A stretch of DNA of 64,000 nt, from positions 1 through 64,000 of IMG/VR virus record IMGVR_UViG_3300045996_000607; one strand, given 5' to 3'. Both the position numbers and the translations under genes were made by a program. Below are positions 5,601-60,738 of the stretch, one piece after another. The notes under the pieces were generated by a model, which searched no databases, had not been told where the DNA came from, and was given only the letters and a program-made list of their open reading frames with translations. The first letter of the stretch is position 1. The number at the start of each line of letters is the position of its first letter. The stretch is from a virus.

Positions 5601-8581
5601 TGCAGGATTATCAGGAAGGCGATATCGCGGACGGCCCAAACGGGGCCCTTGTATTCCGCGGTGGCGCGTGGGTTCCGCTTGCCGCCACCCCGACACCTGT
5701 CCGCGTGGGGACGCCAAATCCTTATGCGCTGCCGAAGGCCGCCGCCGATCTCCAGAGCGCACAGTCGCGCGAGACGCGCGAGCAGGCCAAGGCAGACCGC
5801 GAGGCTCGCGAATGGGCAGCCACGCACAATCCTGATGGCTCCCCGAAGCCGAACGCACTTCAGGGCAGTGCCGAGATGACGGCAGCCACGCGTGCAGCCG
5901 CTATCAACGCCTTCACTGCCACCCGCCAGCTTGATCAGCTCATCACCGACATCGAAAAGCGCTATCGCACCGGCCCCGGCTCTACGTCTGGGCTGGGTGG
6001 TGTCTTCGACTACCTGCCGACGCCTTCCAATCGCGAGTTTGACGACGCCGGCAATGCCGTCAGGGGCGCGGCTATTACAGCGCTAGGCTTCACTTCCGGG
6101 CAGACCAACTCGCCCAAGGAAGTGGAAATGAATATCGGGCCGTACATCCCGAAGGCTGGCGACTACGATACACAGATCGAGGGGAAGATCGCCCGTCTGA
6201 AGGAGCTTCGTGACCGTGCGCGCGTGCAGGCGGTCACTGTCCTCGGCGGCGTTCCGGACGCAAGCGGCAAGATCACACCGCTCTCCCAGATCCCGCAGCA
6301 GAATCGTGAGCAGCTTTTCCCGCCCGGCACGCTGCAGCCCCTCGAGCCCGGCGCGCCGGGCGGCGGAGGCCCCACTTCCCCGCCTATCGACGGCAACGGC
6401 GTTCGCATGGGGAATTTCGGCGGGGGCCAAACCATCGCTTTTGGGGGTGACGCTGTTCCGGTTACCGGCGCCCGGATGACTCCGCAGCAAGAAGTTCAGG
6501 TGCTGGCGGCTATTCGCGCCGGGGATCAGGGGCAAGCGGCTGCGTTGCTCCAGCGTTTCGCAGGCGGCTCCCCTGAACAGGCGTCCGCAAATGTCGCGTC
6601 TGCTCTCGCCACCCTTCAGCGCGATCCGCGAGCCAAAGTGTCGTTCGACTACAGTGGCGTAGATCGGGCGGCGCAAAGCGCGGCTGACCGCGCGCGCTAC
6701 GGCGAAAATCTTGCACCCGCGATGCAGGAGCGGCAGGGCGCGGAGTGGGATACGGCCATCCGTTCTGCGGCGAATGCAGGCACCTTCAATCTGGCAGACC
6801 CGCTCGTCGCGGCGCTTTCGACACCGTTCAGCGGCAAGAGCTACAACGAAAATCTGCAGCGGGAACGCGCCTATACCGAGGCTGGCCAACGGGTAAATCC
6901 GGGGTATGCGTTCGGTGGCACGATCGGCGGGGGTGCCCTGACTGCGGGTCTCGGGGAAGTGGCGCTTGCCAAGGCGGCAGGCACGGGAACCGGGCTTTTG
7001 CCCAGCGTGATGCGCTCCCCTGTCACCGCCGACGCCGGTTTCGGAGCCCTCGCCAGCGGCGCCAACGGGGAGAATCCGATAACCGGCATGTTTGCTGGTG
7101 CGGGTGGTGGCGTTCTCGGCCGGACAGCAGCACGTCCAATTTCCGCTGCGGCCCGCGGTGTCGAGGGCATCGGAAGGCGCGTGCTCGGCGCCACCCCCTC
7201 GCCCGTCGCACCGAACACCGCCCAGAAAGCAATGCTCGGTGCCGCAGATCGTGTCGGGCAGCCCACGATTGACACCTTCCTTGAGGAGGCGGCTAATATG
7301 GATGTCCCGGCCGCTCTGGTCGACATCGCGCCGCAGTTTCGGTCGTTGGGTGGCGCCGTGGTTCGCCGCTCCCCCCAAGCCGCCCAGATCGCGGAGGGCG
7401 CGTTGCTCCCCCGCGCACGCGGACAGATCGACCGTCTTGGCTCAGCTATGGACACAGCCTTCGGGCCCGGAGCGAATATTCCCCAGCGCAGTGCGGATCT
7501 GATCAAGAAGGCGCGGCAGGAGGCGGGCCCGCTTTACGACAAGGCCTTTGCTAATCCGGGCGCGGCATCGGTCCCCTTGGACGACCTTGCAACGCGGCCC
7601 GGGTTCAAAGCCGCCCTTCAGCGGGCGCAAAGCCTCGCAGCGGAAGAGGGTGTGGACCCGACCAGCCTCGGATTTCAGCTGAGCGATGCCGGCGAAGTTA
7701 TTCTCGAGCGCGTCCCGTCGTTTCGCACGCTCGATTACGTCAAGCGCGGGCTGGACGATGAGATTGGTGCCAATCGTAACGCATTTGGCAACGTCGAGTG
7801 GACCGATCAGCTTCGCGCTGTCGAGGGCACGCGATCGGCGTTGGTCAAGCGGATGGACGAGGTGAACGGCGACTATAGCGCCGCACGCGCCGCTTATGCC
7901 GGGCCGGCCGGGGAGCGAGAGGCGTTTAATCAGGGCGTGGGTGCGATCAACCTTCGCCCTGATCAGCTTCGCTTCAATACGGCGACGATGCCCGCGAACA
8001 AGCTGGATCAGTACCGACTTGGGGCGCGATCGGCCTTGGGAGATCGCGCGGAAACGGTGCGGTTCTCTGGCAATCCGTGGGAAGGAGTGGCCGGCTCCCC
8101 TGCCGCGCAGGAGCGCCTGGGGACGCTATGGCCCGAAGGAACGCCGGGCTTCCTCAAGAAGTACGGAATGGAGCAGCAGCTCGCTCGCACCAATAATGCC
8201 ATCCTCGGTAATTCGATGACGGCAGAACGCCAGCTGGCCGATCAGGCTTTTGCTGGCTCGAACCTGCCAGCGCTCGCTCTTGATGCGGGTATGATGGCGG
8301 CTGGTCAGGTGCCGACAGCCACCATCGGGCGGAAACTTGGTGGCCAGTTCCTCGGCGACTCGCTCAAACTGGGCGTAGGCAAGCGGGCCGTCCAAAAGGC
8401 GGACGAGCTGGCGCCGATCCTGTTTAATACCAATCCGCAGGCGGCGGCATCAACCTTGTCCGAGCTAGTTAACTCGGCGCAGGCCTACAGGGATTTCGTC
8501 GGCCGCTACAATCGAACCCTTGGTCGGGCGGGCGGCATGTTTGGCGCGGGGCTCGCCGTCCCTAGTGTTGGGACGCAATAA
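5600..8581 (+). CDS. Large internal virion (DNA ejection) protein, phage A
   Basis: About 993 aa, Ala/Gly-rich helical; N-terminal third homologous to 52895..55627. Confidence 0.75.
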   Translation: MQDYQEGDIADGPNGALVFRGGAWVPLAATPTPVRVGTPNPYALPKAAADLQSAQSRETREQAKADREAREWAATHNPDGSPKPNALQGSAEMTAATRAAAINAFTATRQLDQLITDIEKRYRTGPGSTSGLGGVFDYLPTPSNREFDDAGNAVRGAAITALGFTSGQTNSPKEVEMNIGPYIPKAGDYDTQIEGKIARLKELRDRARVQAVTVLGGVPDASGKITPLSQIPQQNREQLFPPGTLQPLEPGAPGGGGPTSPPIDGNGVRMGNFGGGQTIAFGGDAVPVTGARMTPQQEVQVLAAIRAGDQGQAAALLQRFAGGSPEQASANVASALATLQRDPRAKVSFDYSGVDRAAQSAADRARYGENLAPAMQERQGAEWDTAIRSAANAGTFNLADPLVAALSTPFSGKSYNENLQRERAYTEAGQRVNPGYAFGGTIGGGALTAGLGEVALAKAAGTGTGLLPSVMRSPVTADAGFGALASGANGENPITGMFAGAGGGVLGRTAARPISAAARGVEGIGRRVLGATPSPVAPNTAQKAMLGAADRVGQPTIDTFLEEAANMDVPAALVDIAPQFRSLGGAVVRRSPQAAQIAEGALLPRARGQIDRLGSAMDTAFGPGANIPQRSADLIKKARQEAGPLYDKAFANPGAASVPLDDLATRPGFKAALQRAQSLAAEEGVDPTSLGFQLSDAGEVILERVPSFRTLDYVKRGLDDEIGANRNAFGNVEWTDQLRAVEGTRSALVKRMDEVNGDYSAARAAYAGPAGEREAFNQGVGAINLRPDQLRFNTATMPANKLDQYRLGARSALGDRAETVRFSGNPWEGVAGSPAAQERLGTLWPEGTPGFLKKYGMEQQLARTNNAILGNSMTAERQLADQAFAGSNLPALALDAGMMAAGQVPTATIGRKLGGQFLGDSLKLGVGKRAVQKADELAPILFNTNPQAAASTLSELVNSAQAYRDFVGRYNRTLGRAGGMFGAGLAVPSVGTQ

Positions 8582-12209: not shown

Positions 12210-12614
12210 GTGACCCTGACATCCGCTCTTGCCCTTCTGGGCGCTATCCTCGGGCCAGCGGGCATCGGCTTCCTGCTGAAGACGTGGCTCGACCATCAAC
12301 GCGGCAAACGCAAGCAGTCTGATGATGTCGCCATGGCGCTTGTCGAGAAGCTGGAAGCCCGCGTCGAGAAGCTGGAAGGCTCGCTCGAGCGGGAACAGGA
12401 GCGATGCGAGGCGATGCTCGGCGTCCACCGGCACCGCATCAACAATCAGCGGACGTTGATCTATTCGCTGCTGCACTTGTTCGACATGCCCGCTGCACGC
12501 CGGAAGGCGGCGCTGGTGATCGTGCGCGCCGAGCTTGCTTCAATGGAGCAGGCGGAGGCCGTCGAGAAGGGCATCGTTGCCGCAGCGCCTCTAGCCACCC
12601 CGGAGGCTGCATGA
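12210..12614 (+). CDS. Lysis-associated membrane protein (single TM plus coiled coil; holin/antiholin candidate)
   Basis: N-terminal TM, directly upstream of the endolysin. Confidence 0.55.
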   Translation: MTLTSALALLGAILGPAGIGFLLKTWLDHQRGKRKQSDDVAMALVEKLEARVEKLEGSLEREQERCEAMLGVHRHRINNQRTLIYSLLHLFDMPAARRKAALVIVRAELASMEQAEAVEKGIVAAAPLATPEAA

Positions 12615-13276
12615 CCATAGCCACCTTTCAGGCATGGCTGAACGCGCGCGGCGCTGACATCGCCGTTGATGGCGCGGGTGGGCCGAAGACCCGCGCTGCG
12701 ATCCTGGACGTATTCACCAACCTCCATGCGCCGGCAGTCGACAGCGTGGAGCTCGCCGGCTTCGCGGACGATCTCGGTGTGAGCCTGAAGCAGATGATGG
12801 CCGTGGCCAAGGTCGAGTCTGCTGGCGGTGGCTTCACCGATACCGGCCGCCCCAAGATCCTTTTTGAGCGACATTACTTCTGGCGCCTGACGCAAGGCGC
12901 CCATGGGTTGCAGCCGTGGAGCAATCCGCAAGGGGGCGGCTATGATCAGGACAGCTGGTCGAAGCTGTGCCTTGCCGCGTGCGTAGATCCCTCTGCCGCC
13001 TTTGCCTCATGCAGCTGGGGCAAGTTCCAGATCATGGGCGCGCACTGGCTCGCGCTCGATTATCTCTCGAGCTACGGCATGGCCTATACGATGGTCCACA
13101 GCGAGGCTGACCACTACGAGGCGCTGGTGCGGTTCGTGAAGGCGAACCGGCTGGTGGAGGAAATGCGGGCCATCTCGCGCGATCCCGAGACGTGCCGGGG
13201 TTTCGCGAAGGCGTATAATGGCCCGGGCTACGAGCGCTTCCGCTATCATCTCAAGCTGGCAGAGGCGATGCGATGA
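12611..13276 (+). CDS. Endolysin, N-acetylmuramidase (DUF3380-like) with N-terminal PG-binding segment
   Basis: AVAKVESAG..RPKILFERH, SWGKFQIMG and FAKAYNGPGY motifs. Confidence 0.9.
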   Translation: MTIATFQAWLNARGADIAVDGAGGPKTRAAILDVFTNLHAPAVDSVELAGFADDLGVSLKQMMAVAKVESAGGGFTDTGRPKILFERHYFWRLTQGAHGLQPWSNPQGGGYDQDSWSKLCLAACVDPSAAFASCSWGKFQIMGAHWLALDYLSSYGMAYTMVHSEADHYEALVRFVKANRLVEEMRAISRDPETCRGFAKAYNGPGYERFRYHLKLAEAMR

Positions 13277-13542: not shown

Positions 13543-13855
13543 GCAGGTTTTGGGCGGGTTGGCTAATTCCTGATAGCGCTGCTGGACGTGTCCCTGCGCG
13601 GGATCACATCACCGGGCCGCTCTCCGCACTTGCATCGCAGCCGGGCCTTGAGTTCATCCAGCGTGAGGTCGCCCAGCCGCTCGAGCAACTCCTTCGCGCT
13701 CATCACCCGGATACGCTTGCAGCCGGGCTTGTGGCAGCCGACGTGGACGTTCAGGCCGTCTGATATGAGGTGGGAGAGCTTTCTCACCCCCACGCCATCC
13801 AGCAGGCGGCAAACACCAGCATACCGAAGAAGCCGCGGAGGAAGCGGCGGTCGGT
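13536..13855 (+). repeat. Segment shared with phage B (60214..60240 plus 60431..60723)
   Basis: 27-bp atcgtaggcaggttttgggcgggttgg plus about 290 bp of high identity; B has a 190-bp insert between them. Confidence 0.9.
13563..13787 (-). CDS. Small zinc-ribbon protein (copy at 60431..60655)
   Basis: C-x4-C ... CKC; near-identical to the B copy; GTG start overlaps the upstream peptide stop. Confidence 0.7.
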   Translation of the reverse strand: MRKLSHLISDGLNVHVGCHKPGCKRIRVMSAKELLERLGDLTLDELKARLRCKCGERPGDVIPRRDTSSSAIRN

Positions 13856-13870
13856 GATTAGTGCGCGCAT
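13784..13870 (-). CDS. 28-aa hydrophobic peptide MRALITDRRFLRGFFGMLVFAACWMAWG
   Basis: Not in ORF track; conserved in length and sequence at 60652..60738. Confidence 0.65.
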   Translation of the reverse strand: MRALITDRRFLRGFFGMLVFAACWMAWG

Positions 13871-13891
13871 TCAGATGCTATAGCGTGGACA

Positions 13892-13906
13892 GAACGTTTG
13901 CGGAAC
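13892..13906. promoter_or_regulatory. Alphaproteobacterial LexA (SOS) box GAAC-N7-GAAC between divergent genes
   Basis: GAACgtttgcgGAAC, next to palindromic gctatagc (13877..13884) that could act as -10 on both strands. Confidence 0.75.
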
Positions 13907-13920
13907 GCTAGTGTTAGTCC

Positions 13921-15144
13921 GTGCTCGTCACCTACGTCTTCCGGGTTCGCCCAACCGCTGCGCAGTATGCGCGGCTTGACGAGATACTCCGAGACCAGCG
14001 CCATCTCTACAACGCCGCCCTACAAGAGCGGCAGGAAGGATGGCGCCGCGGTATCTCCATCTCCCAAAATGACCAGACCAAATCGCTGACCGAGATCCGG
14101 GCTTTCGATGAAGTATACGGCAGCCTGCCCTACAATCTCTCGAAATGGACACTTTGCCGACTTGAGGACGCCATGAGGGGCTTCTTCCGTCGCGTGAAGC
14201 GCGGCGCTCGCAGTGGCTTCCCTCGCTTCCGCGGCGCCGGTCGTTGGCGCAGCTTTGGGTTCTCTCAGAAGGATGGGCTCAGGCTTGTTGGTTCGACCCT
14301 CCGATTCAGCGGTGGGCTTGTCGGCGGACTGAAGATCAAGATGCACCGTCCCCTTCCTGAGGGGGCGCAAATCAAATCTGCGGTCTTTACCAAACAAAGC
14401 GGACGATGGCGGGCGGCACTGGCGATCGACATAGCGGTAGCCAGCAGGCATGAACTTCCGGGAACCGCAACAGGAATGGATGTGGGTATCGAAGCGATAG
14501 CCACGCTTTCGGATGGGAGTCGCTTTGCCAACCTTCGGGCCGGCACCCACCGTAAGGCCGCATTGCGTCGCGCCTCACGCGCTTTGGGTCGATGTAAGCG
14601 AGGTTCGCGGCGCCGCCTTAAGGCGCGCGCCCGTCTCGCTCGCCTCCAGCGGCTGGTTAGGCAGGCTCGAACCAACCACCTCCACCAAGTCTCTTCGGTA
14701 ATTGCGCGCGATTACGAATTGATTGTAGTCGAGGCTCTGAAGCTTCGGAATATGACCCGTTCCGCGTCCGGCACAGTTGACGCCCCGGGGAGCAACGTCC
14801 GGCAGAAGGCCGGTCTGAACCGCGCGCTGGCAGATGCCGCGCCGGGAAGGTTGATCGAGATGCTGCGCTACAAGGCTGAGAGGGCCGGTGGCGTGATGAT
14901 CGCGGTCGATCCGAAGCGGACATCGCAGGAATGCAGTTCCTGTGGTGAGATCGTAAAGAAGGCGCTGTCTGAGCGTCGTCACGTTTGCGCTTGTGGCGCA
15001 AACCTTCATCGCGATCACAATGCCGCGATCAACATATTAGCGCGCGGCCTTGCTGCGCACGGGGCTGTCAGGGGCCCCGGAGACGCCAACGTGGGACAAC
15101 AGTCCGTGCGTCGTCTCGGAACAGCGGAGCCGCTGGCGGCTTAG
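13921..15144 (+). CDS. tnpB: RNA-guided endonuclease TnpB (IS200/IS605 family), no tnpA
   Basis: N-terminal HTH (YVFRVRPT), GFPRF, RuvC D (GMDVG), E (VVEAL), D (HRDHNAAINI), zinc finger CSSCG...CACG. Confidence 0.95.
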   Translation: MLVTYVFRVRPTAAQYARLDEILRDQRHLYNAALQERQEGWRRGISISQNDQTKSLTEIRAFDEVYGSLPYNLSKWTLCRLEDAMRGFFRRVKRGARSGFPRFRGAGRWRSFGFSQKDGLRLVGSTLRFSGGLVGGLKIKMHRPLPEGAQIKSAVFTKQSGRWRAALAIDIAVASRHELPGTATGMDVGIEAIATLSDGSRFANLRAGTHRKAALRRASRALGRCKRGSRRRLKARARLARLQRLVRQARTNHLHQVSSVIARDYELIVVEALKLRNMTRSASGTVDAPGSNVRQKAGLNRALADAAPGRLIEMLRYKAERAGGVMIAVDPKRTSQECSSCGEIVKKALSERRHVCACGANLHRDHNAAINILARGLAAHGAVRGPGDANVGQQSVRRLGTAEPLAA

Positions 15145-15221
15145 CCGCTAACGACCGTACCAAGATTGCCGCATCGATTCCGGCGCGTTGATCCCAATGA
15201 CCATAATACAAACACCCCCGA
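15070..15221 (+). ncRNA. Putative omegaRNA scaffold plus guide overlapping the tnpB 3' end
   Basis: Stems gagacg/cgtctc enclosing ggac-aaca-gtcc, and tggcggc-tta-gccgcta; expected location for TnpB reRNA; boundaries uncertain. Confidence 0.5.
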
Positions 15222-15404
15222 TCAGCAGGGGCTATTGAGTTCGACGCCCAGAAAGCTGGCGAGGTTTGCGCGCGGAGTTCCGAAGCGCATGCATTCTTCG
15301 CACAGAGCAGACCAATGTTCCTTCTTGGCGCCGCAGTGCTCGCACATCGGCCGGTTGGCGATGATACGGTGTCGTAGGGTTGCGAGAGAGGGTTTGCCCG
15401 TCAT
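15222..15404 (-). CDS. Small zinc-finger protein
   Basis: CEHC...CEEC; coupled to upstream gene. Confidence 0.55.
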   Translation of the reverse strand: MTGKPSLATLRHRIIANRPMCEHCGAKKEHWSALCEECMRFGTPRANLASFLGVELNSPC

Positions 15405-15856
15405 GATGAAGCTCCCATCCCTGCTATTTCAGCGTTGAGGGAGGGGGTGGAAGCGGCTCGGGCGCGTAGGGCGGCTGCGCAGATTGCGAGCGGGATTGTC
15501 GCGGCCCTCGCTCCGGCAGAGTACGGCTCCTCGGTCATCTCAAAGCCAGCACGTGGCGTTCGCTGATCTTCGCGAGAGTATCCGTAGGCAGCGGGGCTCA
15601 GCGGGGCACTGGCGCTCCACCACCAGTTCGGTTGCGCCAGAGTCATGGCGGCGTCGATAGAGCCGGTGAATGCGGGCAGCGTCCGTTTGTCCGCCACTAG
15701 AGGGCTTGCGTGGAACACCGTGGGTTCCTCGTCGCCGACAATGTAAATGCCGACATGCGCGTCAGGGTACAGCGCCTTGACGATCGCTGCATCAAGTTCC
15801 CGATCAGGCCCGGTCGCGGCCGTGCACAACTCAACCAATGCAAGAAGATCGCTCAT
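15401..15856 (-). CDS. Phage hypothetical protein
   Basis: ATGPDRELDAAI...SIDAAMTL pattern; N- and C-termini shared with 62502..62759. Confidence 0.65.
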   Translation of the reverse strand: MSDLLALVELCTAATGPDRELDAAIVKALYPDAHVGIYIVGDEEPTVFHASPLVADKRTLPAFTGSIDAAMTLAQPNWWWSASAPLSPAAYGYSREDQRTPRAGFEMTEEPYSAGARAATIPLAICAAALRARAASTPSLNAEIAGMGASS

Positions 15857-16371
15857 GCTACACCTCCCAGGCGCGCTATCTCGGAAGAGGGGGTGGGGGC
15901 GTAGGATGCCTCCATAGCGGCTCGGAGTTCATCGTCGCTCAGGTCAGGCATTGCGCGGATGTGCTCCCACCTGATCAGACGAGCATCGGAAATGCTGTTG
16001 ATGTACGCTCGCAGATCATCCGTGAGGCGAAACCATTCGCCTTTTGGGCGGATGCGAGACTTCGCGAAATGACGGTGCAGTCGACCCTCTAGCCCTTCGT
16101 CCCCGGGGATCGTGGCGAGAACCTTGAGCTTCCCCGAGTTCGCGCATTGGAGTGTGCGAACGCGTGAAGCGAGATCACTCGTCCAGCCGATTTTGACCGT
16201 GCGCGAATTGCCAGCGCGGACGAAGTAGACGACGCCTGCCGCCGTTTCGTGTTTTCCACTCGCACCAAGAACGCCAGCCTTTTCAATGGCCGGTTTTCCA
16301 AGAACGGAAGGTGACTCTGGCGGATTTGCGTGCATGATGCCTATCGCAATTTTAAGTGGATATCGACGCAT
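15853..16371 (-). CDS. GIY-YIG / T5orf172-like nuclease-domain protein
   Basis: VYFV..G...VKIGWT.D...R...LQ..N; E..LH..F...R...GEWF. Confidence 0.8.
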   Translation of the reverse strand: MRRYPLKIAIGIMHANPPESPSVLGKPAIEKAGVLGASGKHETAAGVVYFVRAGNSRTVKIGWTSDLASRVRTLQCANSGKLKVLATIPGDEGLEGRLHRHFAKSRIRPKGEWFRLTDDLRAYINSISDARLIRWEHIRAMPDLSDDELRAAMEASYAPTPSSEIARLGGVA

Positions 16372-16412
16372 ATACTAGGCAGATTTCGGGGTGTTTTCCA
16401 AGCGTTTTCGAT
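16243..16412. other. Putative intact attP
   Basis: GTTTTCCA-type repeats at 16251, 16293 and 16393 (variants about 16279 and 16404) flank an AT-richer core at the integrase 3' end. Confidence 0.5.
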
Positions 16413-17436
16413 GGACGCTCTTTGTTCCCTCCCATTTCAGGACTGCCGCAGAGCCAAGGCGCTTGTTGTTCCGGCGCCGCGCGTAGTGCTCGACCATCCC
16501 GAGGGATTGCCCTGTAATCGATGAAACCTCGCCCGTTGAGCAGCCGGCCTCGAGCAGGGCATTGACCGCATTCTTGCGGAGGCCGTGCGGCACCACCTCG
16601 TAGCTGAGCGTGCGGGCAAACCGCTGCAGGTGCTTGCGCAGCGTGTCGACCTTCATTGGGCGTCCATTGCGCCCGTAGAGAATCGTCAGGGCCTCGCGCG
16701 GGGTTGCGTCCAGCAGCGCCTTCAGGTCGCTGTGAAGCTGGATATCCAGCTCCTTGCCGGTCTTCTGCTGCTTCACATAGACGAAGCCATCGCGGATATC
16801 GGACCACCGCATCTTGCACACGTCGCCGATGCGCTGGCCGGTATAGTACAGCAGACCCACCGCGAGCCCGACGTTTGCATCAGAAAGAGCGGCCTCAATC
16901 AGATCCTCGGGCCATGGCTCATGCTCCTCCTCCGACTTCTCGCCGAAGTCGATACCATCGGTAGGGTCGATCTTGATCCATTCCCGCTTGATCGCGAACC
17001 TCATCAGGTTCTGCATCACGGCGAGCACCATCTTTGCGGCGCCGGGTGTAGCGGCCATCTTGTCCAGCAGCGCCACGATGTCGGAGCGCTCGACTTCAGC
17101 AAGCGGCGCATCCCCCATTTCCGCCTCGATCCGCCTGATGTAGATCAGGTAGGTGTGCTGCGTGCCGTTGCTGCGGCGGGTGAACTTCTCGCTCTTCTGG
17201 TATGCGCGACTCAGGTCGGCGACCGTGGTGTCGCTCTTGAGCGCAGCCCGCGACGTGCGAGCGGCCAGCAGCGAAGCATACACACCGCCATAGCTCGGGT
17301 CCGACTTCTTGGGCAGGCGCTTGTAGACGCGCTTGCCGGCAACCGTCTGGCCGGTGTCAAAATACTCGTAGTCATTGCCACGAGCGCGGACCTTCTTGAT
17401 GAAGTCGGGATATGAGGCGACCAGTTTACGCGGCAT
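16375..17436 (-). CDS. int: Tyrosine recombinase / integrase
   Basis: YTGQRIGD, QQKTG, HGLRK and GQSLGMVEHY catalytic motifs; probable start MPRKLV at 17436. Confidence 0.93.
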   Translation of the reverse strand: MPRKLVASYPDFIKKVRARGNDYEYFDTGQTVAGKRVYKRLPKKSDPSYGGVYASLLAARTSRAALKSDTTVADLSRAYQKSEKFTRRSNGTQHTYLIYIRRIEAEMGDAPLAEVERSDIVALLDKMAATPGAAKMVLAVMQNLMRFAIKREWIKIDPTDGIDFGEKSEEEHEPWPEDLIEAALSDANVGLAVGLLYYTGQRIGDVCKMRWSDIRDGFVYVKQQKTGKELDIQLHSDLKALLDATPREALTILYGRNGRPMKVDTLRKHLQRFARTLSYEVVPHGLRKNAVNALLEAGCSTGEVSSITGQSLGMVEHYARRRNNKRLGSAAVLKWEGTKSVHRKRLENTPKSA

Positions 17437-17659
17437 TGTAGAGCTTCGATTTGCTGCGCCAGTTCGGCGTGGTGTCATTGGTCAGGCGGTTCAGGTGCTC
17501 ATCGATCGCCACGCGGCTCCAATGCTCGCTGTTGCCCAACTTGATCGGCCCCGGCAGTCGAGCTGCGGCAACCTCGCGCTCGAACTCCGCCGCGGTCAAG
17601 TCGCAGTACAACGCAGCGGTGGCGCGTCGCATCATTCGGGGCCAGCCTGGTGCGGTCAT
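17426..17659 (-). CDS. xis: Excisionase-like wHTH protein
   Basis: WPRMMRRATAALYCD...LPGP...W; immediately upstream of int. Confidence 0.7.
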   Translation of the reverse strand: MTAPGWPRMMRRATAALYCDLTAAEFEREVAAARLPGPIKLGNSEHWSRVAIDEHLNRLTNDTTPNWRSKSKLYNAA

Positions 17660-18051
17660 GGCGTTCCCTCCCCCACCCCCGCGCTGCCGGTCTTGCCGGG
17701 GCTGAGGGCTTGCAGGATCTTGTGCAGGTCGCGGAGATCAAGGATCGCGCCGCCCAACAGGATGTTGATCTTTGCTTCAGCATGGCCGCGGCATTCGAGC
17801 ATGACGTTGAAGGCCCACGCATCCACCGTCTCTGGATCGAGCGTCGATGCGACCGGGCGGGTGTTCCATGCGGCGATTGCTTCGGCTTGCGTCGGCACCC
17901 TCTCATTCAAAGCGCATGTTTCGTTGTTGCAGACCACCTGCCAGCGCGAATTTCCGAGGAAATTGCTAACATCCTCAAGTAGAGCCTCCCCGTCGCAGAG
18001 CGGACACGGCTTGATCTGCACCACCTCTGCCGGCGCGCTTGTTTCAGTCAT
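17656..18051 (-). CDS. Lar-family restriction alleviation-like protein
   Basis: KPCPLCDGEA...VVC...C...AEAIAAWNTR. Confidence 0.7.
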   Translation of the reverse strand: MTETSAPAEVVQIKPCPLCDGEALLEDVSNFLGNSRWQVVCNNETCALNERVPTQAEAIAAWNTRPVASTLDPETVDAWAFNVMLECRGHAEAKINILLGGAILDLRDLHKILQALSPGKTGSAGVGEGTP

Positions 18052-43616: not shown

Positions 43617-45665
43617 ATGAATGTGCCCGATCTGCGCGCTGCTGTGTCTGTAAATGGCGGAACCCCCACCCGCTATGATATCGTCGGGCTGTTTCGTCAG
43701 CTGGTCACAGCCTATGGTGGGACACCGACGAAATGGTCCATCCGTGAACTTCTGCGGGAGGCGGTGACCGCAGCCGGCGGCACGCCGACGCAGTGGTCAC
43801 AGGTTGGGCTCATGCGCGAGCTGGCGGCGGCCTTGGGGGTTGATCCGGGCGAGTATGCCGGGCGCACTCTTTCAGAGATTATCGCAGAGACTGCGAAGGG
43901 CGGCACCCCCACGCCTACGCCCACTCCCGGCGTGGCTGCTCCGAACTATGCGACGGTCGCCAGCGCCCCGAACGTCGAAGTCTTCCCGCACCTGACGACG
44001 TTCACCGAGAGCGGCGGGCGCGTGACCGGGTTCACCGATCAGAAGGGCCTGCCCTTCACCTCGCCCGACACAAACGGCCCCGTACTGATGACGGATCTGC
44101 TGGGCCGCAAGTTCCTGCGCTTCACGGTGTTCACCGGCATTCAGGGAGCATGGTTGCGCAACGCCACGCTTGCGGCGCTGGACACCTATTGCGCGACATG
44201 GATGCTCGTTGGGCGCGTCCACCTTGCCTACAAGCAGGCATTCGTCAGTCACGGCAACAACGGCGCGACGCCGGCCACGAACGGATCTGCACAGCTCGGC
44301 TGCTCGGGCGGGACCAACGTCATCCCGGGCGCCCCGATGGTCTCGGGCATGACGCCGCTGATCAACACCGCTGTCGCCAACGCTGCCAAACTGGAGACCG
44401 GCTGCCAGCTTCAGGTCATCGGCAACGCGATCATGGCGAGCGACGGTGTGGGCGGGGCGACCACCTCGGGCACGCTGCACCACTGGCTCAACAACGAGGT
44501 CGCAAGCCTCGCGATCAGCGGGCAACGCAATGTCGGCCGCACTGGCTTTGAAGTCGGGCGGCGGGCGAATGGCTCGGGCTCGACGTTCGAGTACGCGTAT
44601 CTGGACCTCTACTACCTCGCTGGCTGGACGACGGGGCAGTTCACCAATGCGAACGTGCTGGCGCAGTCGACACTGATCGCAGGCATTCTGACCAGCAACT
44701 GGGCGATCCCGGCGATCACCGATAGCACTATCCTCGGAGGCGATAGCCGCACCGAGCAGAACCAGACCAATGGCGTGTCCATGGCGATGATGCTGACCGA
44801 GCCGGGTGGCGCAAATGCCCTCGCCACCAGTCACCGCGTGATCAATCTCGGCTATTCGGGCAAGGGATGGCAGACGCAGTACAACGCCACCGTCCGTCCG
44901 ACCTCGCCCTATGGCTTCCTGCTGGGCGGCGGCAAGGATCGCGCGGTGTTCGGCGTCGGCCCCGGCGTGAACGACATGACTGCGGCGTCCGGCTGGCCCA
45001 AAACCAACGCAACTGCCGATCCCGGTGCCCTCACGGCTAACGATACCGTGGCGAGAGCGAACGAAGTATACGATACGGCGGGCACTCTGGACTCGGTTTT
45101 CACCGGCTCGATCAGCGCCGCGGTCCTCACCGTCACTGCCGTGACCAGCGGCGCTATCCGCGTGGGCATGTCGCTCGATGTCAACGGAGGCACCCTGTTC
45201 ATCAACTCGCTTGGCACGGGAACGGGCGGAACTGGAACCTACAACCTGAACACTTCCGCCACGGTGGCATCGCAGACGATCACCGCGCGCCAGGGTGATG
45301 CACGTCGCACCGTGACCAACCTGCTTACGCTCGGCTGGAAGGTAGCGGTTTCGGCAGAGATCAAGAACAACGGCGCGAACGACGCCGGGAGCCCCTCACC
45401 CCTCGACACGCTGCGCGGCAAGCTCCTTGCCATGGCGGCTGATGTTCAGGCCGGCCCGGGTCAGACCTATGACGGCAAGTTCCGCGCGTTCGACAATCGC
45501 GAAATCGTGGTCGGCGGGCTGAAGATCTTCGGCACCGATGCTGTATTCAGCACCGGCTATTACACCGATGGCGTGCATCCGAACGACACGGGGCGTCCGT
45601 TCCTCGTGAGCGGCGGAACCACCCCGCAGCACGGCATCAAGGCCAACATCGAGGCGCTCGTCTGA
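43617..45665 (+). CDS. Virion fibre/decoration protein with SGNH/GDSL esterase domain
   Basis: N-terminal GGTPT repeats, PT linker, lectin-like middle, SGNH blocks GGDS / G.SG / GVND / DGVHP. Confidence 0.75.
   Translation: MNVPDLRAAVSVNGGTPTRYDIVGLFRQLVTAYGGTPTKWSIRELLREAVTAAGGTPTQWSQVGLMRELAAALGVDPGEYAGRTLSEIIAETAKGGTPTPTPTPGVAAPNYATVASAPNVEVFPHLTTFTESGGRVTGFTDQKGLPFTSPDTNGPVLMTDLLGRKFLRFTVFTGIQGAWLRNATLAALDTYCATWMLVGRVHLAYKQAFVSHGNNGATPATNGSAQLGCSGGTNVIPGAPMVSGMTPLINTAVANAAKLETGCQLQVIGNAIMASDGVGGATTSGTLHHWLNNEVASLAISGQRNVGRTGFEVGRRANGSGSTFEYAYLDLYYLAGWTTGQFTNANVLAQSTLIAGILTSNWAIPAITDSTILGGDSRTEQNQTNGVSMAMMLTEPGGANALATSHRVINLGYSGKGWQTQYNATVRPTSPYGFLLGGGKDRAVFGVGPGVNDMTAASGWPKTNATADPGALTANDTVARANEVYDTAGTLDSVFTGSISAAVLTVTAVTSGAIRVGMSLDVNGGTLFINSLGTGTGGTGTYNLNTSATVASQTITARQGDARRTVTNLLTLGWKVAVSAEIKNNGANDAGSPSPLDTLRGKLLAMAADVQAGPGQTYDGKFRAFDNREIVVGGLKIFGTDAVFSTGYYTDGVHPNDTGRPFLVSGGTTPQHGIKANIEALV
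44772..45665 (+). repeat. Direct repeat copy 2 of 1..894
   Basis: Offset 44,771 bp; proteins differ at only 3 residues (T/A, V/I, terminal T/V). Confidence 0.95.
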
Positions 45666-45744
45666 TGCACTTCTATCGCTCTCCGCCCTTCATCATCACT
45701 GAGCTCTCGCTGGTGCTGTGGGCGGGGATATTGGGACTGATGAC

Positions 45745-60430: not shown

Positions 60431-60655
60431 CTAATTCCTGATAGCGCTGCTGGACGTGTCCCTGCGCGGGATCACATCGACGGGCCGCTCTCCGCACTTG
60501 CATCGCAGCCGGGCCTTGAGCTCGTCCAGCGTCAGGTCGCCCAACCGCTCGAGCAGTTCCTTCGCGCTCATCACCCGGATACGCTTGCAGCCGGGCTTGT
60601 GGCAGCCGACGTGGACGTTCAGGCCGTCTGATACGAGCGTCGAAAGCTTCCTCAC
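60431..60655 (-). CDS. Small zinc-ribbon protein (B copy)
   Basis: Near-identical to 13563..13787. Confidence 0.7.
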   Translation of the reverse strand: MRKLSTLVSDGLNVHVGCHKPGCKRIRVMSAKELLERLGDLTLDELKARLRCKCGERPVDVIPRRDTSSSAIRN

Positions 60656-60738
60656 CCCAACGCCATCCAGCAGGCGGCAAACACCAGCATGCCGAAGAAG
60701 CCGCGGAGGGTGCGGCGGTCGGTTAGCAGGCGGGTCAC
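60652..60738 (-). CDS. 28-aa hydrophobic peptide MTRLLTDRRTLRGFFGMLVFAACWMALG
   Basis: Homolog of 13784..13870. Confidence 0.65.
   Translation of the reverse strand: MTRLLTDRRTLRGFFGMLVFAACWMALG

What the first reader, a model, noticed from the sequence alone, without database searches (positions are those of the whole stretch)
13784..15221. Phage-borne, catalytically intact solo TnpB behind a host SOS (LexA) box: candidate domesticated RNA-guided weapon
Seen: tnpB retains RuvC D/E/D and the zinc finger; there is no tnpA in the window; only 50 bp separate its start from the divergent peptide gene, and that gap holds a perfect GAAC-N7-GAAC and a palindromic -10-like gctatagc, with no obvious IS200/605 left-end hairpin; structured sequence overlaps the 3' end; phage B lacks it at the homologous site. 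Known: GTTC-N7-GTTC is the alphaproteobacterial LexA box, and TnpB uses an omegaRNA from its 3' end with flanking sequence as guide. Inference: a nuclease switched on at prophage induction that could cut a co-induced competitor phage or host locus, or drive homing into tnpB-less relatives, rather than a passive IS.
Basis: partly seen in the sequence, partly recalled or inferred. Interest (0 to 1): 0.8.

Follow-up and report, generated by a model that had tools for sequence, protein, structure and literature searches.

The report
Phage TnpB with inherited LexA box
An intact transposon-type RNA-guided nuclease gene (TnpB) sits in a temperate phage, and the DNA-damage (LexA-type) operator in front of it is an inherited hallmark of its whole TnpB lineage, so it looks like a stranded transposon copy with built-in SOS control and not a demonstrated phage weapon.

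Summary
Window 13921-15144 (+) encodes a full-length TnpB with an intact RuvC D/E/D triad and zinc finger. It has a conserved, covarying omegaRNA-like structure at its 3' end. The whole 86-kb record has no tnpA. A perfect GAAC-N7-GAAC lies at 13892-13906, 14 nt before the start.

The new result is that this box is not a host or phage acquisition. All six members of the TnpB clade for which I hold DNA carry GAAC-N7-GAAC or GTTC-N7-GTTC 12-26 nt before the start codon. These are the window, two Bosea plasmids and three metagenome contigs. About 0.006 per upstream region is expected by chance.

Relatives are bounded by 23-25-bp terminal inverted repeats, and three have perfect 8-bp target duplications. 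That is unlike classical IS200/IS605. The box lies inside these elements. The window copy has no detectable left repeat, so it is probably immobile.

The predicted guide is simply the adjacent phage DNA. It matches nothing else in the record, including co-resident phage B.

Best reading: a stranded TnpB-omegaRNA unit with lineage-typical, probably LexA-mediated SOS control. The "domesticated weapon" reading is unsupported. LexA binding and expression remain untested.

The parts
13563..13793 (-). 76-aa zinc-ribbon-like ORF of the phage backbone, overlapping the peptide ORF by GTGA
   Evidence: ORF list. It is 93.5% identical to phage B 60431-60723. No Pfam or PHROG match.
13784..13870 (-). 28-aa hydrophobic peptide ORF, divergent from tnpB and conserved in phage B at 60652-60738
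   Evidence: Translations agree in 22 of 28 residues. In B the ORF follows upstream minus-strand genes without a gap. In A the tnpB unit cuts it off from them.
13877..13884 (.).
   Evidence: Present. No function shown. The region has no significant fold and no significant likeness to the left ends of relatives.
13886..13914 (+). Weak promoter-like frame: TGGACA (13886-13891), a 17-nt spacer equal to the box plus 2 nt, then TAGTGT (13909-13914), then 6 nt to the GTG start (leaderless geometry)
   Evidence: Read. It matches only 8 of 12 consensus positions and is below the threshold of the promoter scan, which found none. Inference only.
13892..13906 (.). GAAC-N7-GAAC direct repeat, an alphaproteobacterial LexA-operator type, 14 nt upstream of the tnpB start
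   Evidence: for the position. Conserved in 6 of 6 clade members 12-26 nt upstream of the start. Spacing and orientation controls stay at background. All six form one supported clade. The motif definition comes from PMC9578287 and PMC3323433.
13921..15144 (+). tnpB, 407 aa, catalytically intact RNA-guided nuclease gene
   Evidence: phrog_506, E 3e-80.
15077..15193 (+). omegaRNA-like scaffold: SL1 15077-15119, SL2 15124-15158 (holds the stop codon 15142-15144), SL3 15164-15193
   Evidence: Same three-hairpin layout as relatives L163, L164 and L167. Compensatory changes are seen. The covariance model scores it 96.9 bits. SL3 differs in sequence from relatives. No Rfam family matched.
15194..15209 (+). 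Right-end remnant: the CCAATGAC core (15194-15201) shared with the right terminal repeats of relatives, plus 8 nt. The end is predicted near 15209, with 15202-15212 possible.
   Evidence: Alignments A2 and A4 and the right ends of relatives. The boundary is inferred by analogy and not defined by a second copy.
15210..15229 (+). Predicted guide segment (flanking phage DNA read through from the scaffold)
   Evidence: The position follows from established TnpB biology (guide = DNA just 3' of the right end). No match of 13 nt or more elsewhere in the record. Only chance hits in phages and plasmids.
15214..15232 (-). Terminator-like hairpin with a T-rich tail for the 60-aa ORF, overlapping the predicted guide
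15222..15404 (-). 60-aa cysteine-rich ORF, specific to phage A, translationally coupled to the 151-aa ORF 15401-15856
   Evidence: weak double zinc ribbon hit, below cutoff. It lies inside the A-specific segment 13856-15415.

Best explanation
This is one copy of a TnpB-omegaRNA element from an alphaproteobacterial TnpB lineage whose members carry their own LexA-type operator (GAAC-N7-GAAC or GTTC-N7-GTTC) just upstream of tnpB, inside the element.

The copy landed in the accessory region between the lysis genes and the integrase module of temperate phage A, whose host is probably Sphingomonas-like. There it interrupts a leftward operon that is continuous in the sister phage B.

It keeps the operator, an intact nuclease gene, the conserved omegaRNA scaffold and part of the right end. 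It has no detectable left terminal repeat, so it is most likely a stranded, no longer mobilisable copy.

Predicted working: host LexA sits on the box, which fills the space between weak -35 and -10 elements of a probably leaderless promoter, and keeps tnpB and its 3' omegaRNA silent. DNA damage removes LexA, at the moment when the prophage itself is likely to be induced. TnpB then loads an omegaRNA whose guide is the adjacent phage sequence. Its only predictable target is therefore a tnpB-less version of this same locus, which is ordinary transposon-retention or homing logic.

Shown: gene identity and integrity, RNA structure conservation, clade-wide conservation of the box, terminal repeats and duplications in relatives, and absence of a second target in the record.

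Inferred: LexA binding, SOS induction, promoter geometry, the guide boundary and immobility.
For: Gene identity and integrity.

The box is conserved in 6 of 6 clade members with otherwise unalignable upstream DNA, a variable N7 and both orientations. About 0.006 is expected per upstream region. Controls with other spacings, mixed orientation or permuted tetramers are at or below background, as are Gram-positive and gamma-type LexA motifs. The six form one clade with SH-aLRT 97, while four other motif hits are scattered singletons.

The two Bosea elements are alike only from the box (-27) to 59 nt past the stop. In L163, L164 and L167 the box lies inside 23-25-bp terminal inverted repeats.

GTTC-N7-GTTC is the published LexA motif of Alphaproteobacteria. 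Named clade members are Bosea, Sphingomonas, Rhizobium and Bradyrhizobium. Named integrase relatives of the phage are Sphingomonas.

omegaRNA.

No left repeat in the window: upstream against reverse-complemented downstream scores 14 against a shuffle mean of 15.1, with no significant likeness to any relative's left end. The positions where relatives have it (58-92 nt upstream of the start; window 13829-13863) lie largely in phage backbone shared with B (up to 13855).

Guide: no other target.

This exact protein occurs once in the protein collection, and its nearest relative is about 68% identical. There is no near copy in the phage or plasmid collections.
Against: - LexA binding and damage induction are untested. 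No RNA data were found.
- Only six clade members could be read, because the tool that fetches DNA for the 100+ protein homologues was closed. Two of the six (Bosea) are close kin.
- The -35/-10 assignment is weak: 8 of 12, below the scan threshold. It does not fit the Bosea copies.
- The LexA motif of Sphingomonadaceae is assumed from other Alphaproteobacteria.
- The right-end and guide boundary rests on analogy.
- Absence of a left repeat could reflect divergence of both ends and not loss.
- An intact ORF that keeps every invariant residue is also what one would expect of a copy kept by selection for the phage.
Confidence: 0.62

Rival explanations
1. One reading: the phage has domesticated the nuclease. 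On prophage induction it cuts a co-induced competitor (phage B or another phage) or a host locus, or drives homing of the tnpB segment into tnpB-less relatives.
For: The ORF is intact and keeps all clade-invariant residues. The left end is not recognisable. Expression would plausibly coincide with induction because of the box. Two related phages with 95% identical integrases share the record, so competition is conceivable. Non-restorative homing between co-infecting phages is a recognised theoretical mode for such elements (PMC13565253).
Against: The box is inherited from the TnpB lineage and is not a phage adaptation. The predicted guide has no match of 13 nt or more in phage B or anywhere else in the record, and only chance hits elsewhere. 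B's homologous site holds unrelated genes, so it offers neither a target nor homology for homing on the right side. No conserved synteny can be shown.
Confidence: 0.12
2. The conserved GAAC/GTTC direct repeat is not a LexA operator. It could be a binding site for another protein, for example the transposase that mobilises these repeat-bounded elements, TnpB itself or another regulator, or it could be a promoter element.
For: It lies inside the element, tens of bases from the left terminal repeat, where transposase or host-factor sites are common. LexA binding is untested. The sigma-70-like hexamers around it are weak.
Against: The motif is exactly the published alphaproteobacterial LexA repeat. 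Only the two tetramers and the 7-nt spacing are conserved, while N7 and orientation vary, as expected for an operator and not for an orientation-bound promoter element. It tracks the start codon at 12-26 nt and not the terminal repeat, whose distance from it varies. An ECF-type GGAAC-N16/17-CGTT reading does not fit the sequences (my inspection).
Confidence: 0.15
3. It is an inert relic: a recently stranded insertion that is not expressed to any effect and is merely on its way to decay.
For: It is a single copy with no tnpA or other transposase in the record. The left end is not detectable. SL3 and the right end have diverged from relatives. B does without it. One clade member (L233) already has a broken frame yet still has the box.
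Against: There is no stop or frameshift, and all 78 invariant residues of the clade are retained. The omegaRNA scaffold scores as high as those of relatives. GC content matches the phage, so the insertion is not obviously very recent.
Confidence: 0.2

Closest known systems
ISDra2 TnpB with its omegaRNA/reRNA (IS200/IS605 family, Deinococcus radiodurans)
   Same: Same size (about 408 aa) and domain order. Full-length alignment at E 1e-33 with matching RuvC D/E/D and CxxC...CxC. A structured RNA overlaps the 3' end of the gene and runs to the right end. Activity of that element is also linked to DNA damage (PMC2806898).
   Different: ISDra2 has tnpA, hairpin ends, and no terminal inverted repeats or target duplications. 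Its damage response acts through single-stranded DNA supply and not through expression. Here there is no tnpA, relatives have inverted repeats plus 8-bp duplications, and a LexA-type operator precedes tnpB.
IS1341-group (tnpB-only) members of IS200/IS605
   Same: A solo tnpB with no transposase gene beside it, as in the Bosea relatives and the window.
   Different: The family is defined as lacking terminal inverted repeats and target duplications (PMC13565253). This clade's relatives have both, and the window copy shows neither a hairpin nor a repeat at its left side.
Fanzor (eukaryotic TnpB homologues) captured by cut-and-paste transposons
   Same: An RNA-guided nuclease gene carried inside elements with terminal inverted repeats and target site duplications, with the guide RNA scaffold running into the terminal repeat (PMC10711439). 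The same layout is seen in L163, L164 and L319.
   Different: Those are eukaryotic or viral, distantly related proteins. Here the elements are bacterial, the duplications are 8 bp, and a LexA-type box is present.
LexA-repressed genes of mobile elements (for example the Tn5 transposase, Kuan and Tessman 1991, cited in PMC2806898; integron integrases, from my own knowledge)
   Same: A mobile element places a host SOS operator on the promoter of its own DNA-cutting or DNA-joining enzyme, so that activity is confined to DNA-damage conditions.
   Different: Those concern transposases and integrases in Gammaproteobacteria with the palindromic CTGT-N8-ACAG box. I found no paper linking LexA to TnpB. 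Here the motif is the alphaproteobacterial direct repeat and the enzyme is an RNA-guided nuclease.
TldR (TnpB-like nuclease-dead repressors), the documented case of TnpB domestication
   Same: A TnpB homologue outside a complete transposon, with a neighbouring guide RNA.
   Different: TldRs have lost the catalytic residues and aim conserved guides at promoters (PMC13565253). This protein keeps D/E/D, and its guide is just flanking DNA.

Membership tests
TnpB / OMEGA RNA-guided nuclease | HTH/WED-RuvC-zinc-finger domain architecture | tested here: met
   Pfam PF12323, PF01385 and PF07282 are all above their cutoffs. Residues 5-381 align with the ISDra2 TnpB structures.
TnpB / OMEGA RNA-guided nuclease | Intact RuvC D-E-D triad and four zinc-binding cysteines | tested here: met
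   D187, E271, D365, C338, C341, C356 and C358 are invariant in 36 sequences including the window protein.
TnpB / OMEGA RNA-guided nuclease | Structured guide RNA scaffold overlapping the 3' end of the gene and ending at the right end | tested here: met
   Three-hairpin fold shared with relatives. 96% of cells are paired and 14 pairs change on both sides, against about 35% paired when partners are slid (that alignment was fitted to the model). Transcription and processing were not tested.
TnpB / OMEGA RNA-guided nuclease | TAM-dependent, guide-directed DNA cleavage | not testable with these tools
   Needs a TAM depletion or interference assay. The TAM of this clade is unknown.
IS200/IS605 transposon (including the IS1341 group) | Subterminal hairpins at the left and right ends, with no terminal inverted repeats and no target site duplication | tested here: not met
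   Relatives L163, L164 and L167 have 23-25-bp inverted terminal repeats. L163, L164 and L319 have perfect 8-bp flanking duplications. The window's left side has no significant fold.
IS200/IS605 transposon (including the IS1341 group) | Y1 (HUH) TnpA in the element or elsewhere in the genome | tested here: inconclusive
   None in the 86-kb phage record, nor next to the Bosea copies. The host genome is unknown.
Alphaproteobacterial LexA (SOS) regulon | GTTC-N7-GTTC / GAAC-N7-GAAC direct repeat | tested here: met
   Perfect match at 13892-13906. Motif as published.
Alphaproteobacterial LexA (SOS) regulon | The site is conserved in front of orthologues | tested here: met
   6 of 6 clade members, one supported clade, with controls at background.
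Alphaproteobacterial LexA (SOS) regulon | The site overlaps the promoter | tested here: inconclusive
   It lies 12-26 nt from the start codon in all six. In the window and L167 it fills the spacer of weak -35/-10 hexamers with leaderless spacing. The hexamers fail the scan threshold, and the Bosea copies do not fit.
Alphaproteobacterial LexA (SOS) regulon | LexA binding and RecA-dependent induction | not testable with these tools
   No RNA-holding sequencing run was found. EMSA and RT-qPCR are needed.
Domesticated (exapted) TnpB | Fixed position conserved across diverged relatives of the host replicon | tested here: not met
   Sister phage B lacks it. No other relatives of the phage were found.
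Domesticated (exapted) TnpB | A guide aimed at a sequence other than the element's own flank | tested here: not met
   No second match to 15190-15250 in the record. Only chance hits in phages and plasmids.
Domesticated (exapted) TnpB | Loss of transposon ends | tested here: inconclusive
   The left repeat is not detectable. The right end is partly kept. This is equally expected of a decaying copy.

The most novel reading that the evidence does not exclude
This TnpB lineage is a so far undescribed kind of bacterial OMEGA element. The RNA-guided nuclease rides on a non-autonomous element bounded by terminal inverted repeats that makes 8-bp duplications, a bacterial parallel to Fanzor capture by cut-and-paste transposons. 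It also carries its own LexA operator, so the nuclease and its guide RNA are made only during the SOS response. In the phage, this inherited switch would time nuclease expression to prophage induction, where it could bias inheritance of its locus among co-induced related phages.
Probability: 0.35. Interest if true: 0.78.

Novelty: new variant of a known kind. Interest (0 to 1): 0.58.

Why it matters
How transposon-borne RNA-guided nucleases are regulated is hardly known. A lineage-wide LexA operator would tie TnpB cutting to the moment when RecA and homologous repair are active. This fits the idea that TnpB exists to provoke recombinational restoration of its element, and it would limit self-inflicted damage in normal growth.

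The relatives' inverted repeats and 8-bp duplications suggest that bacterial TnpB, like eukaryotic Fanzor, has been captured by a second, unrelated transposition machinery. For phage biology, it shows that an "SOS-controlled nuclease in a prophage" can be an inherited transposon trait and not an adaptation. That is a caution for calling such genes weapons.

Tried and rejected
The DNA around the 100+ closest protein homologues (65-70% identity) could not be read. This is the main limit on sample size.
2. Near copies were sought in phages and plasmids by DNA and by protein. None were found beyond two Bosea plasmids at about 60% amino-acid identity. Searches, with very strict E-values, returned nothing and are uninformative.
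An omegaRNA stem pattern found no clade member in IMG/VR.
4. Alphaproteobacterial genome samples held no clade member among 400 genomes. Two attempts to find a Bosea-like centre genome found nothing, because my queries and thresholds were ill chosen.
5. Relatives of the phage were sought through its flanking proteins, to find an empty site. No close ones were found.
6. Rfam gave no match.
7. Sequencing runs: one soil DNA run with a small share of the words, and no RNA holder listed.
8. Guide targets: 12-nt matches in the record are at chance level. A 25/28 match in a Rhizobium plasmid has no tnpB nearby and is chance.
9. A likeness I saw by eye between the window's upstream 45 nt and the left ends of L187 and L167 is not significant, and I dropped it.
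10. An ECF-sigma (GGAAC-N16/17-CGTT) reading of the box was rejected because the downstream element is missing and the orientation flips.
11. The other two GAAC-N7-GAAC sites in the window (25836, 48082) lie in ORF-dense DNA and are probably chance.
Full report
**What is there.** The window is bases 1-64000 of an 86,291-bp IMG/VR virus record with a 127-bp terminal repeat. The record holds two collinear, related temperate phage genomes, A (1 to about 44771) and B (about 44772 to 86164). Their integrase regions are 95% identical.

The finding lies in A between the lysis genes and the integrase module. The lysis genes include a muramidase at 12614-13276 (Pfam PF11860). The integrase is at 16375-17478 on the minus strand. 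Its closest named relatives are Sphingomonas integrases at 52-55% identity.

The ORF at 13921-15144 (+) encodes 407 aa from a GTG start that aligns with the ATG of its relatives. It is a typical TnpB:
- All three Pfam domains are above their cutoffs.
- It matches phrog_506 at 3e-80.
- It aligns over its full length with the solved ISDra2 TnpB.
- All 78 invariant columns of a 36-sequence clade alignment are kept, including D187, E271, D365 and the four cysteines.

The whole record has no Y1 transposase, no serine recombinase and no second TnpB.

**The left side.** A 28-aa minus-strand ORF (13870..13784) and a 76-aa ORF that overlaps it are conserved in phage B. That leaves a 50-bp gap (13871-13920) before tnpB. 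The gap holds gctatagc (13877-13884) and a perfect GAAC-N7-GAAC (13892-13906).

Counted in this window alone, the box is unremarkable, with 3 sites against 1.63 expected. The other two sites lie inside ORF-dense DNA. The gap does not fold better than shuffles.

**The box belongs to the TnpB lineage.** The nearest proteins in the 5.8-billion-protein collection are only 65-70% identical, and the window protein's own cluster has one member on one contig. I therefore used every relative whose DNA I could get: two Bosea plasmids (L163, L164, about 60% identity) and metagenome contigs L187, L233 and L167 (58, 54 and 50%).

All five, plus the window, carry GAAC-N7-GAAC or GTTC-N7-GTTC with its proximal edge 12-26 nt before the tnpB start. 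The statistics:
- Among 281 distinct upstream regions of TnpB relatives, 10 have the motif against 1.9 expected.
- All six loci at 50% identity or more are among those 10.
- The same tetramers at N6 or N8, in mixed orientation or permuted, are at or below background.
- The Gram-positive and gamma-type LexA motifs are also at or below background.

On a protein tree the six form one clade (SH-aLRT 97, quick search), and the other four hits are scattered singletons. Outside the two tetramers the upstream DNA is not alignable, N7 varies, and the orientation is GAAC in four loci and GTTC in two.

The two Bosea elements are 77% identical, but only from the box (-27) to 59 nt beyond the stop codon. 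GTTC-N7-GTTC is the published LexA operator of Alphaproteobacteria (PMC9578287 Table 1; PMC3323433). Named clade members come from Bosea, Sphingomonas, Rhizobium and Bradyrhizobium.

I conclude that the box is an inherited part of this TnpB lineage and most likely a LexA operator. It is not something the phage or host placed in front of a captured gene. I found no paper that links LexA to TnpB.

**Ends of the related elements.** L163, L164 and L167 have 23-25-bp imperfect terminal inverted repeats that start with GG. The left one lies 49-92 nt upstream of the start. The right one forms part of the last omegaRNA hairpin.

In both Bosea copies, perfect 8-bp direct repeats abut the inverted repeats: CTTTGTTA in L163 and CTTACAGC in L164. 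A more distant relative with a different terminal repeat (L319) has AACGAAAG on both sides. L257 and L169 have repeats without a duplication. A solitary copy of the L164 left repeat lies elsewhere on the same plasmid.

The literature defines IS200/IS605 and IS607 as lacking both features. The only TnpB relatives described in such elements are eukaryotic Fanzors. The box lies inside these repeats, so it travels with the element.

**Ends of the window copy.** Upstream against reverse-complemented downstream DNA scores at the shuffle mean (14 against 15.1). The 45 nt upstream of the box resemble no relative's left end better than shuffles do. The positions where relatives have their left repeat are largely phage backbone shared with B in the window.

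On the right, the CCAATGAC core of the relatives' right repeat is kept at 15194-15201, and the rest has diverged. By analogy the element ends near 15209. The copy therefore has at best one recognisable end and is probably not mobilisable.

In B the peptide gene directly follows a run of minus-strand genes. In A the tnpB unit and a 60-aa ORF replace that stretch. B is therefore not a clean empty site.

**The RNA.** Window 15075-15212 folds into the same three hairpins as the relatives. The second hairpin holds the stop codon. A covariance model of the first two hairpins scores the window 96.9 bits and finds six further TnpB 3' ends. On that alignment 96% of cells pair, and 14 of 21 pairs change on both sides. 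Sliding the partners drops pairing to about 35%. The alignment was fitted to the model, which favours the structure. Rfam has no matching family.

**The guide.** In known TnpB systems the guide is the DNA just 3' of the right end. Here that is about 15210-15229, which overlaps the terminator-like hairpin of the neighbouring 60-aa gene. Nothing of 13 nt or more from 15190-15250 recurs in the 86-kb record. Searches of the phage and plasmid collections gave only chance-level hits, including a Rhizobium match with no tnpB nearby. The guide therefore gives no evidence that the nuclease is aimed at phage B, another phage or a known replicon.

**How it most likely works.** LexA bound at 13892-13906 would block a weak promoter: TGGACA, 17 nt, TAGTGT, then 6 nt to the GTG start. 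This is a leaderless geometry, repeated in L167 but not in the Bosea copies, and it falls below the promoter scan's threshold.

DNA damage would derepress tnpB and, with it, the omegaRNA at its 3' end. That is the same signal that is likely to induce the prophage. The nuclease could then cut only a tnpB-less version of this locus carrying the right TAM.

All of this paragraph is inference. No expression data were available.

**Verdict.** The SOS link is strengthened and relocated from "host box" to "lineage trait". The weapon or domestication reading is not supported, though it is not excluded.

The finding is a new variant of a known kind. The variant features, a LexA-type operator on TnpB and terminal repeats plus duplications in a bacterial TnpB lineage, are worth following up. 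At present they rest on six and three loci respectively.

Noticed in passing
L163 3834-5205, L164 3274-4632, L319 about 5868-7161 (loci from Bosea plasmids and an IMG/VR contig): TnpB relatives are bounded by 23-25-bp terminal inverted repeats starting with GG, with perfect 8-bp direct duplications outside them (CTTTGTTA, CTTACAGC, AACGAAAG). This is the signature of a staggered-cut (DDE-like) transposition and not of IS200/IS605 or IS607. A solitary copy of the L164 left repeat lies at about 527,000 of the Bosea RAC05 plasmid.
   Followed up: partly
window 1-64000 plus L344 and L345 (whole record, 86,291 bp): The record is two collinear related phage genomes joined head to tail (1-896 matches 44772-45667 at 97%; integrase regions 16239-17720 and 64278-65759 are 95% identical) with a 127-bp terminal repeat. 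It is either a tandem double prophage or double-length circle, or a chimeric assembly.
   Followed up: partly
window 13563-13870 and 60431-60738: A 28-aa hydrophobic peptide ORF overlapping (GTGA) a 74-76-aa cysteine-rich ORF is one of the few high-identity blocks shared by phages A and B. In B it ends a long minus-strand operon. In A it is cut off from that operon by tnpB and would need a promoter in the 50-bp gap that also holds the LexA-type box.
   Followed up: partly
L247 about 5948 and L250 about 1586 (IMG/VR contigs): Two phage-borne TnpB genes only 42-45% identical to the window protein also have GTTC-N7-GTTC, 53 and 60 nt upstream of the start. They fall outside the box-bearing clade on the tree, so this may be chance or independent gain.
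   Followed up: no
L233 452-1631: This clade member's tnpB matches in two pieces and its frame ends early, so it is probably a pseudogene. The GTTC-N7-GTTC box upstream is still perfect.
   Followed up: no
upstream regions of L170, L171, L176, L179 and L182: A neighbouring TnpB subclade (40-44% identity) has a conserved GCTCA-N5-6-TGAGC hairpin (two fewer loop bases if the G-C inner pair is counted) about 40-50 nt upstream of the start. This is the classical IS200/IS605 left-end look, in contrast to the box-bearing clade.
   Followed up: no
window 15853-16371 (-): The 172-aa ORF next to the integrase matches several PHROGs of unknown function and, weakly, an endonuclease family (phrog_17889, E 8e-4). 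It may be a second nuclease-like accessory gene in the same region.
   Followed up: no
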